From positions 15,955 to 79,954 of the IMG/VR virus record IMGVR_UViG_3300034418_012737: 64,000 nucleotides of DNA; one strand, 5' to 3'. The notes beneath the pieces are model-generated. The model was not told where the DNA came from. It worked only from the letters and a program-made list of their open reading frames with translations, and searched no databases. The translations under genes were made by a program, and so were the position numbers. Below, in pieces: positions 39,504 to 40,362 of this stretch. This DNA comes from a virus. Each line of letters opens with the position of its first letter. The first letter of the stretch is position 1.

Positions 39504-39520
39504 TTTTCAATAAATATTAG

Positions 39521-39594
39521 TAGGAGATACTGGATTCGAACCAGTGACCTTTCGGATGTAAACCGAATGCTCTAACCAACTGAGCTAATCTCCC
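39521..39594 (-). tRNA. tRNA-Val(UAC)
   Basis: Anticodon arm TTCGG-TTTACAT-CCGAA. Confidence 0.95.
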
Positions 39595-39599
39595 AATTG

Positions 39600-39834
39600 C
39601 CCCAGCCAGCGCTGAGGACTTGTCCGTCTGGTATCTCGTCGGACCACTGAGATTCTATATTCTAGGCTATAGAAAACCTAGTCTCCCATATTAGACTAAG
39701 GGTTATTATGGGGTGATGTCTGTTCCCCTCTCTGACCCCAAATGTAGGCCAACTGGGAATCGAACCCAGAGACATCGACTACTAGAATACTGCCATATCC
39801 GTTCGCACTTTTACCCCTTTCCCCCTGGCAGGGG
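39600..39834 (-). ncRNA. Circularly permuted tRNA-like (tmRNA-like) RNA with pseudoknots
   Basis: T-arm and acceptor 3' strand precede the acceptor 5' strand and a tmRNA-type D-loop; three potential H-type pseudoknots; terminal helix. Confidence 0.7.
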
Positions 39835-39840
39835 AGAAAT

Positions 39841-39917
39841 TGGAGCCACTAGCAGGATTCGAACCCGCGACCTGCTGATTACAAATCAGCTGCTCTAGCC
39901 AACTGAGCTATAGTGGC
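39841..39917 (-). tRNA. tRNA-Thr(UGU), CCA encoded
   Basis: Anticodon arm GCTGA-TTTGTAA-TCAGC. Confidence 0.95.
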
Positions 39918-39937
39918 TGCATTCGCCTCACACGCTG

Positions 39938-40010
39938 TGATCCCGGTCGGGCTTGAACCGACGACCCTTCCCTTAAAAGGGGAATGCTCTACCAGCTGAG
40001 CTACGGGATC
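39938..40010 (-). tRNA. tRNA-Lys(UUU)
   Basis: Anticodon arm TTCCC-CTTTTAA-GGGAA. Confidence 0.95.
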
Positions 40011-40013
40011 AAT

Positions 40014-40362
40014 AAATGAAGGAATGGGTAAAGAGTTATTCAGGCTCTTAAGCGCGACAAGCAGGCGGTTGTATTGGTAAATCATAATGGCACAAGAGGA
40101 GTGTTAAACCCGCATCCCATTAATTATTTCACTTCATGGCTGCTAACCCCAATTGAAGTTCACAATATCGCTTAGTAGAATTTAGTTCCACTATCACACA
40201 ACCACACACTAAATAAGCCCACCTCAACGGTTCTCACCTCTCACTAGCGCTTGCTAGTGAGTGAAGCTACTTATCAGCATGTGTACTTTATCCCCCTAAA
40301 CAAGGGACACATTCAGTCATACCCCCCCGTGCGTGATCAGCGCGGTGGGGTTTCCTTCATTT
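40014..40362 (-). ncRNA. Unidentified structured RNA (~349 nt)
   Basis: 11-bp terminal helix AAATGAAGGAA/TTCCTTCATTT plus at least six internal helices; fills the gap between two tRNAs. Confidence 0.7.

What the first reader, a model, noticed from the sequence alone, without database searches (positions are those of the whole stretch)
39600..39834. Circularly permuted tmRNA-like RNA with pseudoknots between tRNA-Thr and tRNA-Val
Seen, in minus-strand order: (1) a T-arm CTGGG-TTCGATT-CCCAG (39753-39769); (2) an acceptor 3' strand TTGGCCT-A (39745-39752); (3) a 6-nt linker; (4) the matching acceptor 5' strand GGGTCAG (39732-39738, three G-U pairs); (5) a stemless 14-nt segment AGAGGGGAACAGAC, with the same length, GG position and GAC ending as the E. 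coli tmRNA D-loop segment AUUCUGGAUUCGAC. AGACATC (39715-39721) pairs with GATGTCT (39770-39776) where the anticodon arm would be. Three potential H-type pseudoknots follow: CCCATA/TATGGG + TTAGTCT/AGACTAG; CTAGG/CCTAG + TTCTATA/TATAGAA (partly overlapping the first); ATCTC/GAGAT + GTCCG/CGGAC. The ends can pair (39600-39609 with 39825-39834). Upstream of the T-arm, a tmRNA-style UA-NNN-G resume context opens GTG CGA ACG GAT ATG GCA GTA TTC TAG TAG (VRTDMAVF, 39779-39808). Known: two-piece tmRNAs and YrlA Y RNAs both have permuted tRNA-like domains. Unlike known two-piece tmRNAs, this one lacks the G3-U70 alanylation determinant and the putative tag sits on the acceptor piece. Inference: a new ribosome-rescue variant, an SmpB or anticodon-nuclease decoy, or a Y-like RNA released by tRNA processing.
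Basis: partly seen in the sequence, partly recalled or inferred. Interest (0 to 1): 0.88.

Follow-up and report, generated by a model that had tools for sequence, protein, structure and literature searches.

The report
Two modular RNAs in phage tRNA array
The 246-base gap between two tRNA genes of this uncultured marine phage holds two separate, conserved, folded non-coding RNAs, a rearranged tRNA look-alike with a sealed acceptor end and an unrelated double-pseudoknot RNA; it is not a tmRNA, and what the two RNAs do is unknown.

Summary
Most of the proposed pairings hold up in relatives.

The stretch is not one RNA. It is two modules that occur independently in other phages.

- **Module A (39705-39840, minus strand)** is a circularly permuted tRNA mimic. 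A closing helix encloses a canonical T-arm, an acceptor-like hairpin closed by a loop, and a stemless GG-containing strand. A 5' hairpin and a further hairpin complete it. Three diverged lineages keep all six helices through compensatory changes. A normal cloverleaf (decayed tRNA) fits worse.
- **Module B (39595-39704)** is a hairpin, two H-type pseudoknots and a 7-bp hairpin. Eleven pairs covary. Its core is letter-identical in unrelated phages.

A occurs without B (L156, L037) and B without A (L043, L122, L124, L126).

ARAGORN and Rfam find no tmRNA, YrlA or other family. The proposed tag frame is broken in relatives, there is no G3-U70, and no SmpB or Ro gene was found in these partial contigs.

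Most likely both are small stable RNAs cut out of the tRNA transcript by tRNA-processing enzymes. That step is inferred, and their function is unknown.

Earlier follow-ups in this scan reached the same two-module reading on related phage DNA.

The parts
39841..39917 (-). tRNA-Thr (UGU) with encoded CCA. It forms the upstream boundary of the spacer.
   Evidence: ARAGORN; Rfam tRNA 72.6 bits
39818..39839 (-). Module A, 5' hairpin: UUUCUCCC / GGGGGAAA with loop CUGCCA.
   Evidence: 6 of 8 pairs change on both sides across W, L137, L156 and L037
39710..39817 (-). Module A body, enclosed by helix P0: GGGGU (39817-39813) with ACCCC (39714-39710).
   Evidence: P0 covaries to GAGGU/ACCUC in L156 and L037. 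CM R2/R3 scores 162-171 bits
39785..39800 (-). Module A hairpin Pa: GGAUAU-GGCA-GUAUUC. It is followed by the single strand UAGUAGUC (39784-39777), invariant in the W group and L156 and CAGUAAUC in L037.
   Evidence: Three compensatory pairs in L156 (AAACGU-GGCA-GCGUUU). The L123 insertion and the L137 C>U change keep the pairing
39715..39776 (-). Module A permuted tRNA-like domain: P1 GAUGUCU/AGACAUC; T-arm 39769-39753; acceptor-like closed hairpin UUGGCCU (39752-39746) / GGGUCAG (39738-39732); stemless D-like strand AGAGGGGAAC (39731-39722).
   Evidence: P1, the T-stem and the acceptor-like hairpin each have compensatory changes in L037 or L156. The cloverleaf alternative is 68-83% paired with no compensatory change
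39595..39704 (-). Module B: H1 hairpin (39697-39693 / 39684-39680); inserted pseudoknot Sa (39679-39677 / 39666-39664) + Sb (39674-39668 / 39659-39653); core pseudoknot S1 UCUC/GAGA (39652-39649 / 39637-39634) + S2 GUCCG/CGGAC (39644-39640 / 39626-39622); H3 CCUCAGC-GCUG-GCUGGGG (39617-39600); tail CAAUU.
   Evidence: 98.8% of cells paired, 11 pairs with changes on both sides, 0 of 500 shuffles reach this. 25 CM hits at 54-142 bits. Homologs listed
39520..39594 (-). tRNA-Val (UAC). Its 5' end (RNase P site) abuts the tail of module B.
   Evidence: ARAGORN; Rfam 73.5 bits

Best explanation
The spacer encodes two independent, portable, structured non-coding RNAs inside a phage tRNA operon.

Module A (about 135 nt) is a circularly permuted tRNA mimic. 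The RNA enters and leaves through helices P0 and P1, which sit where an anticodon stem would be. P1 is followed directly by a canonical T-arm. Next comes an acceptor-like 6-7-bp helix whose two strands are joined by a short loop, so there is no free 3' end to charge. Then comes a stemless strand with a GG that could contact the T-loop the way a D-loop does.

Module B (about 110 nt here, about 75 nt in minimal forms) is a hairpin, an H-type pseudoknot with an almost invariant 38-nt core, and a 7-bp terminal hairpin with a conserved U.G pair. The long form carries a second, inserted pseudoknot.

Shown: both folds, their conservation, their independence from each other, and their placement flush against tRNAs or tRNA-like elements.

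Inferred: both are transcribed with the tRNAs and released as small stable RNAs by the tRNA-maturation nucleases (RNase P at the 5' end of the downstream tRNA, 3' trimming behind the upstream one). They then act in trans. A would occupy a factor that recognises the tRNA elbow/minihelix without being aminoacylated. B would bind a conserved partner through its invariant pseudoknot.
For: - A and B are separable. L043 has tRNA-Thr followed directly by B. L156 has A alone between tRNA-Asn and tRNA-Pro. L037, L059 and L077 have A alone, ending at the 5' end of tRNA-Thr.
- B also occurs in four other contexts.
- A fold: 97.8% paired, 17 pairs with double changes, and every helix covaries.
- B fold: 98.8% paired, 11 pairs with double changes.
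- B is followed within 2-5 nt by tRNA-Val, tRNA-Pro or tRNA-Cys, or by a mini tRNA-like element (acceptor + T-arm) in L126.
- B is preceded directly by a tRNA or a tRNA-like ...CCA in L043, L126, L140 and L141.
- RNA-library contigs of an L120-like relative span 39596-39979.
- There is precedent for tRNA-like domains with a loop-closed acceptor stem in YrlA (PMC4201824).
- T4 rnaC and rnaD are annotated small stable RNAs in the T4 tRNA cluster.
Against: - No RNA ends were observed. The metatranscriptome data are contigs and may include DNA.
- In this window no tRNA separates A from B, so they may be released as one 246-nt RNA.
- No partner protein is known. TROVE, SmpB and CCA-adding enzyme genes are absent from the own and related contigs, all of which are partial.
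- No protein gene is consistently adjacent to B.
- The A alignment that includes L037 was fitted to the model, and rests on only three lineages.
Confidence: 0.6

Rival explanations
1. Cis-acting elements only: A and B are structured spacers that guide or protect processing of the polycistronic tRNA precursor (nuclease barriers, folding insulators, RNase P/E entry points). They would have no function after release.
For: They are always embedded in tRNA arrays or ncRNA arrays and lie flush with tRNA ends. The cassette-like swapping of flanking tRNAs suggests modular operon building blocks.
Against: The 38-nt core of B is identical in sequence, not only in structure, in phages of very different base composition. 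The T-loop, P1 and most of the single-stranded junction in A are equally invariant (one junction position differs in L037). An insulator would need structure only. L043 does without A, and L156 does without B.
Confidence: 0.22
2. A is a Y RNA of the YrlA type that recruits host Ro60/Rsr (and PNPase). B, which carries GGUCCGA, might supply the Ro-binding site.
For: The order of elements is the same as in the YrlA tRNA-like domain: T stem-loop, closed acceptor-like stem-loop, D region. PMC4201824 also reports YrlA in phages. B contains GGUCCGA, the motif contacted by Xenopus Ro60 according to that paper.
Against: - Rfam YrlA gives no hit on A or B.
- The GNCGAAN0-1G motif is not conserved. W has GCGAACG, L123 has GUGAACG, and L156 and L037 have none.
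- There is no TROVE gene in six contigs, whereas YrlA lies within 4 kb of rsr.
- A has no D stem.
- GGUCCGA in B is inside helix S2 and changes to GGUUCGA with a compensatory change in L124.
- A and B occur separately.
Confidence: 0.08
3. One reading: a circularly permuted (two-piece-like) tmRNA variant with tag VRTDMAVF that rescues ribosomes or decoys SmpB.
For: It has a permuted tRNA-like domain with a stemless D-loop analogue, as in the tmRNA tRNA-like domain, with pseudoknots nearby. M. smegmatis YrlA shows that a 7-bp closed acceptor stem can be opened by RNase P and receive CCA.
Against: - There is no ARAGORN or Rfam tmRNA hit.
- Position 3-70 is G-C.
- The acceptor loop shrinks to 3 nt with a 6-bp stem in L156.
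- The tag frame is destroyed in L123 and is not conserved in L156 or L037.
- The pseudoknots belong to a separate module.
- No SmpB gene was found in the own contig or the four related contigs searched, all of them partial.
Confidence: 0.03
4. A is a decayed tRNA gene (pseudogene) and the rest is spacer.
For: There is a weak Rfam tRNA hit at 39745-39816: 15.8 bits, E about 1-3, with 6 of 7 acceptor pairs and a GG in a D-like loop.
Against: The cloverleaf-specific helices are only 68-83% paired, show no compensatory change, and break in L156 (A7xC66, D stem lost) and in L037. The competing helices P0, Pa and the acceptor-like hairpin do covary. The sequence 3' of the 'tRNA' (AGAGGGGAACAGACAUCACC) is invariant across the W group and L156.
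Confidence: 0.04

Closest known systems
YrlA / bacterial Y RNA tRNA-like domain (Rfam RF02553; Chen et al. 2014, PMC4201824)
   Same: The order of elements in the tRNA-like module is the same as in A: entry helix, T stem-loop, acceptor-like stem closed by a loop, D region, exit helix. Like Yrn1 of D. radiodurans, A has no full D arm. YrlA is also found in some phages.
   Different: There is no Rfam hit. The Ro-binding motif GNCGAAN0-1G is not conserved. No rsr/TROVE gene is nearby. A lies in a tRNA operon and has extra 5' hairpins (H5, Pa) and a mostly invariant UAGUAGUC junction. Function as a Ro partner was not tested.
Phage T4 small stable RNAs, species 1 (rnaC) and species 2 (rnaD)
   Same: They are non-tRNA stable RNAs encoded inside a phage tRNA cluster, adjacent to tRNA-Arg. 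rnaC carries a T-arm (CCGGGTTCGAATCCCGG) near its 3' end. Their function is also unknown (my own knowledge).
   Different: There is no detectable homology. CMs R1 and R3 give no significant hit on the T4 region, and blastn against the phage collection finds nothing. The rnaC T-arm is near the 3' end and is not visibly enclosed as in A; its fold was not examined.
tmRNA, including two-piece permuted forms (Rfam RF00023, RF01849-51)
   Same: It has a T-arm, an acceptor-type helix and a stemless D-loop analogue. The permuted gene order is known in two-piece tmRNAs. Pseudoknots are present nearby.
   Different: No G3-U70, no free or encoded CCA end, no conserved tag frame, and no hit by ARAGORN or Rfam. 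The pseudoknots are a separate module.
HDV-like theta ribozymes next to phage tRNAs (Kienbeck et al. 2024, PMC10879173)
   Same: A pseudoknotted RNA placed directly 3' of phage tRNAs, as B is in L043 and L126.
   Different: B has two successive H-type pseudoknots and terminal hairpins, not the nested double pseudoknot (P1/P2/P3/P1.1). No Rfam ribozyme family matches. Self-cleavage was not tested.

Membership tests
tmRNA (one-piece or permuted two-piece) | Recognised by ARAGORN or by the Rfam tmRNA covariance models | tested here: not met
   ARAGORN finds 8 tRNAs and no tmRNA. No tmRNA family appears at E<=10
tmRNA (one-piece or permuted two-piece) | G3-U70 alanine identity pair in the acceptor helix | tested here: not met
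   In GGGUCAG/UUGGCCU, position 3-70 is G-C. L037 has CAGGGG/UCCUUG
tmRNA (one-piece or permuted two-piece) | Conserved tag reading frame with a resume codon | tested here: not met
   L123 has GTG TGA plus a 1-nt insertion. L156 encodes DKQTWQRF. The changes are compensatory in hairpin Pa
tmRNA (one-piece or permuted two-piece) | Free acceptor ends with 3' CCA (excised intervening segment) | not testable with these tools
   The loop joining the strands is 3-8 nt and has no encoded CCA. RNA ends were not observable
YrlA / Y RNA | tRNA-like module in the order T stem-loop, closed acceptor-like stem-loop, D arm | tested here: inconclusive
   The T-arm and the closed acceptor-like hairpin are present and covary. 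The D region has no stem, so it resembles Yrn1 rather than YrlA
YrlA / Y RNA | Ro-binding motif GNCGAAN0-1G near the 5' end | tested here: not met
   W has GCGAACG (no N), L123 has GUGAACG, and the motif is absent in L156 and L037
YrlA / Y RNA | Encoded within about 4 kb of an rsr (TROVE) gene on the same strand | tested here: not met
   PF05731 is absent from the own contig and five related contigs, all of them partial
YrlA / Y RNA | Match to Rfam RF02553 | tested here: not met
   The only match is a 14-bit chance hit that overlaps tRNA-Thr and tRNA-Lys. There is none in 39592-39842
tRNA (RF00005) | Cloverleaf with a score above gathering, kept in relatives | tested here: not met
   15.8 bits against a gathering score of 29. 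ARAGORN finds none. Cloverleaf helices are 68-83% paired with 0 compensatory changes
T4 rnaC/rnaD stable RNAs | Sequence or structure homology to T4 species 1 or 2 RNA | tested here: not met
   R1 gives at most 14 bits, and not on rnaC or rnaD. R3 gives no hit on L176. Only the genomic setting is shared
HDV-like / theta ribozyme | Nested double pseudoknot P1-P2-P3-P1.1 with a catalytic C in J4/2 | tested here: not met
   The covariation-supported helices of B are H1, Sa/Sb, S1/S2 and H3, in a non-nested serial order. There is no Rfam ribozyme hit

The most novel reading that the evidence does not exclude
A represents a phage-only family of circularly permuted tRNA mimics with a sealed acceptor end that work without Ro. 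They would titrate or redirect a host factor that recognises the tRNA elbow/minihelix, for example a tRNA-targeting defence nuclease, a modification enzyme or a ribosomal site. B would be an independent second effector RNA whose invariant pseudoknot binds another conserved host component. An extreme sub-case is not excluded: RNase P opens the 7-bp hairpin of the W-type copies, as it does in M. smegmatis YrlA, and CCA is added.
Probability: 0.3. Interest if true: 0.78.

Novelty: new variant of a known kind. Interest (0 to 1): 0.6.

Why it matters
Phage tRNA clusters are usually annotated as tRNAs plus empty spacers. Here the spacer holds two RNA families with clear covariation that are absent from Rfam 15. 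They were not found in one genome each of about 185,000 prokaryote species by pattern scan.

A extends the YrlA-type permuted tRNA mimic to phages that carry no Ro gene. That raises the question of which tRNA-binding factor such mimics address during infection.

B has a 38-nt core that is identical in phages of very different composition. That points to a conserved, still unknown binding partner.

Both are short, well defined and directly testable by expression, pull-down, RNase P assay and deletion.

Tried and rejected
- **Decayed-tRNA reading.** This was my first guess, from the 15.8-bit Rfam hit. I rejected it after L156 and L037 showed compensatory changes in the competing helices.
- **HDV-like/theta, hammerhead, twister, pistol and hatchet ribozymes.** The helix order does not fit and there are no Rfam hits.
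- **Guanidine-III riboswitch.** I noticed a resemblance by eye and from memory (CCGACGAG...ACC...GGACAAG). Rfam reports nothing at E<=10.
- **Wider searches that found no further family members.**
  - blastn of the spacer against 50,697 phage records: no match.
  - blastn against E. coli genomes: no match.
  - A looser B pattern with both pseudoknot stems free: only chance hits without complementarity.
  - A mis-specified pattern for A wasted one scan.
  - Prokaryote genome scan for B: 0 hits. For A: only ordinary tRNAs followed by terminators.
- **Complementarity or identity of A or B to E. coli 16S, 23S or 5S rRNA.** Not above shuffles.
- **A protein gene shared next to B across lineages.** None. 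The cross-matches were translations of the RNA itself.
- **Literature.** A full-text search for the B core sequence gave 0 papers. The supplement of PMC10690425 is not held.
- **Thermodynamics.** Folding of A alone is not distinctive (z = -0.84).
- **Metatranscriptome contigs.** They cover the region but cannot show ends or prove transcription.
- **Host or taxonomy.** The large ORFs gave no assignment.

Full report
**Setting.** The window is part of a 79,954-bp IMG/VR viral contig that CheckV rates about 47% complete. Its large proteins have few recognisable families. On the minus strand lies a tRNA array: Leu(UAA), Arg, Ile, a 350-nt gap, Lys, Thr(UGU) at 39841-39917, a 246-nt gap (the finding), Val(UAC) at 39520-39594, and Leu(UAG) further on.

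**Check of the observation.** ARAGORN calls no tRNA or tmRNA in the gap. Rfam 15 gives nothing above gathering. At E<=10 the gap gives only three weak hits:
- tRNA at 39745-39816, 15.8 bits (gathering score 29)
- the T-arm against mascRNA, 13.4 bits
- TLS-PK4, 13 bits

There is no tmRNA, YrlA, ribozyme or riboswitch family.

**The gap is two modules.**
- An exact-pattern scan for the tRNA-Thr anticodon arm brought in 117 phage tRNA-cluster loci. One of them, L043, is syntenic with the window. There tRNA-Thr is followed directly by a 110-nt homolog of 39595-39704 and then by tRNA-Pro. Window 39705-39840 has no counterpart in L043.
- Scans with the conserved core of that 110-nt part found it in 7 viral and 17 metagenome contigs.
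- A gapped pattern built on the T-loop and the D-like strand found L156. There a homolog of 39705-39840 stands alone between tRNA-Asn and tRNA-Pro.
- A covariance model of that part found a third, more diverged lineage (L037, L059, L077). It also stands alone and ends at the 5' end of tRNA-Thr.

I call 39705-39840 module A and 39595-39704 module B.

**Module B.** An alignment of eight long forms was scored against this structure: H1 hairpin, inserted pseudoknot Sa+Sb, core pseudoknot S1+S2, and terminal hairpin H3. The result is 98.8% of cells paired, 11 pairs changed on both sides, and 0 of 500 shuffles reaching this. Sliding the 3' partners drops pairing to 19-42%.

Examples of covariation:
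- Sb: UUCUAUA/UAUAGAA becomes CCCUAUA/UAUAGGG in L043 and GUCUGC/GCAGAC in L124.
- S2: GUCCG/CGGAC becomes GUUCG/CGAAC in L124.
- H3: CCUCAGC/GCUGGGG becomes CCUCACU/AGUGGGG in L043 and CGUAGCU/AGCUGCG in L124. A U.G pair is kept at the third position in all of them.

S1 (UCUC/GAGA) never varies, so it rests on complementarity only. Minimal forms of about 75 nt (L122, L132, L134, L126, L140, L141, L128) lack the inserted pseudoknot. In the L126 group H1 has a different sequence, CUCCUAU/AUAGGGG.

The 38 nt UCUCAGUGGUCCGACGAGAUACCAGACGGACAAGUC are identical in all copies except for the compensated pair in L124. Part of this identity was forced by the search pattern, but the free positions are identical too. 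A looser pattern returned only chance hits.

The model R1 finds one copy per locus and no second copy in the window.

**Context of B.**
- On its 3' side B is followed within 2-5 nt by tRNA-Val (W, L123), tRNA-Pro (L043) or tRNA-Cys (L120; Rfam 48 bits, missed by ARAGORN). In L126 it is followed by a mini tRNA-like element made of a 7-bp acceptor stem, a small hairpin and a T-arm.
- On its 5' side it follows tRNA-Thr directly (L043) or a tRNA-like ...UGUGUCU-CCA (L126, L140, L141).
- In L122, L124, L127 and L134 it lies within long gene-free arrays, together with other recurrent structured modules.
- No protein gene is shared next to B across lineages.

**Module A.** My first reading was a decayed tRNA, because 39816-39745 can be drawn as a cloverleaf with 6 of 7 acceptor pairs. 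The relatives argue against it.

On the MAFFT alignment of W, L120, L123, L137 and L156, the permuted fold is 99.5% paired with 7 pairs changed on both sides. That fold consists of the 5' hairpin, P0, Pa, P1, the T-arm and the closed acceptor-like hairpin. The helices specific to the cloverleaf are 83% (acceptor), 68% (D) and 80% (anticodon) paired, with no compensatory change.

Decisive cases in L156:
- P0: GGGGU/ACCCC becomes GAGGU/ACCUC.
- Pa: GGAUAU/GUAUUC becomes AAACGU/GCGUUU.
- The U66>C change turns U.G into C-G in the closed hairpin, but would break A7-U66 of a cloverleaf.

Adding L037, in an alignment fitted to the model, gives 97.8% paired and 17 pairs changed on both sides. Every one of the six helices covaries, including P1 (A-U to G-C), the T-stem, and a completely different acceptor-like hairpin, CAGGGG/UCCUUG.

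The thermodynamic fold of A alone is unremarkable (z = -0.84), so the evidence for it is comparative.

**Why it is not a tmRNA.**
- The detectors find nothing.
- The acceptor-like helix has G3-C70.
- Its strands are joined by a loop of 7 nt (W), 8 nt (L120), 4 nt (L123), 3 nt (L156) or 5 nt (L037), with no CCA.
- The proposed tag lies in hairpin Pa. L123 reads GTG TGA and has a 1-nt insertion. L156 reads DKQTWQRF. These differences are the compensatory RNA changes.
- The pseudoknots belong to module B.
- SmpB, TROVE and CCA-adding enzyme genes were not found in the own contig or in four or five related contigs. All of these are incomplete.

**Comparison with known RNAs.**
- *YrlA.* The order of elements in A matches the tRNA-like domain of YrlA described in PMC4201824: T stem-loop, acceptor-like stem closed by a loop, then the D region. 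That paper also shows that M. smegmatis YrlA, which has a 7-bp acceptor stem, is cut by RNase P and receives CCA. It is not excluded for the W-type copy but is unlikely for L156. A nevertheless fails the YrlA membership tests: no CM hit, no conserved Ro-binding motif, no rsr nearby, no D stem.
- *GGUCCGA in B.* B contains GGUCCGA, the Ro60 contact motif quoted in that paper. Here it is part of helix S2 and it covaries. I treat this as a lead only.
- *T4 rnaC and rnaD.* These share the setting, as stable RNAs in a tRNA cluster, and rnaC has a T-arm. They are not detectably homologous to A or B.

**Expression.** Contigs from three salt-marsh metatranscriptome runs of an L120-like relative span B, A, tRNA-Thr and part of tRNA-Lys (39596-39979). 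One of them is 5.2 kb long. This shows presence in RNA libraries. It does not show RNA ends, and DNA carry-over cannot be excluded.

**Distribution.** A and B were found only in viral and metagenome contigs from aquatic samples. Pattern scans of one genome per prokaryote species found no B, and only chance matches for A.

**Relation to earlier notes of this scan.** Two follow-ups on related genomes (e1-6038290, e1-6040131) described the same pair: a tRNA look-alike plus a separate pseudoknot module, with YrlA as the closest known RNA. I re-derived both points independently here. I add the lone-A lineages L156 and L037, which supply the covariation that decides between the cloverleaf and the permuted fold.

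**Verdict.** The gap holds two real, uncatalogued, modular phage RNAs. Their release by tRNA-processing enzymes and their action in trans are inferred, and their functions remain unknown.

Noticed in passing
window 40011-40362 (minus strand): The 350-nt gap between tRNA-Ile and tRNA-Lys is conserved at 91-92% in L123 and L120, and is present in L043. It is likely a third structured RNA in the same array. Another first-reader note covers it.
   Followed up: no
L126:734-953: Two mini tRNA-like elements bracket module B. Both use the acceptor stem AGACACA/UGUGUCU and the T-arm GGAGGUUCGAUUCCUCC. The second has only a small hairpin in place of the D and anticodon arms. Neither is called by ARAGORN or Rfam. 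They look like punctuation for tRNA-processing enzymes.
   Followed up: partly
L122:5981-6449, L124:7053-7816, L127, L134: Long gene-free arrays in which B is strung together with other recurrent modules. Examples are GAGUUAGUCACUCCCUAUGCUG...GGGGUGCA and the pseudoknot-like CUGUGGUAUUGGUCGUAAUUCCACAG...ACACGAC. Several modules end in GCA(A/G). No Rfam family matches.
   Followed up: partly
L137:3126-3310 (minus strand): Between A and B this relative carries a partial duplicate of hairpin H1 of B, plus an inserted copy of the 'GAGUUAGUCAC' module. This shows that the modules are shuffled as units.
   Followed up: no
window 39520-39594 and 39841-39917 compared with L120: The tRNAs flanking the conserved A+B unit are swapped between close relatives. 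tRNA-Val is replaced by tRNA-Cys, and tRNA-Thr is only 71% identical, while A and B stay 95-99% identical. This suggests cassette-like turnover of tRNA genes.
   Followed up: partly
L176:1409-1547 (T4 rnaC, minus strand): T4 species 1 RNA carries a canonical T-arm (CCGGGTTCGAATCCCGG) near its 3' end. It also shares short words with module A (GAACG..GGATATGG, GAGTAG). No significant alignment or CM hit was found.
   Followed up: partly
window 39646-39640: Module B contains GGUCCGA, identical to the Ro60 contact motif of vertebrate Y RNAs as quoted in PMC4201824. Here it is the 5' strand of helix S2.
   Followed up: partly
L120:2186-2255: A tRNA-Cys (GCA) that Rfam scores at 48 bits but ARAGORN does not call. 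It lies directly 3' of module B.
   Followed up: no
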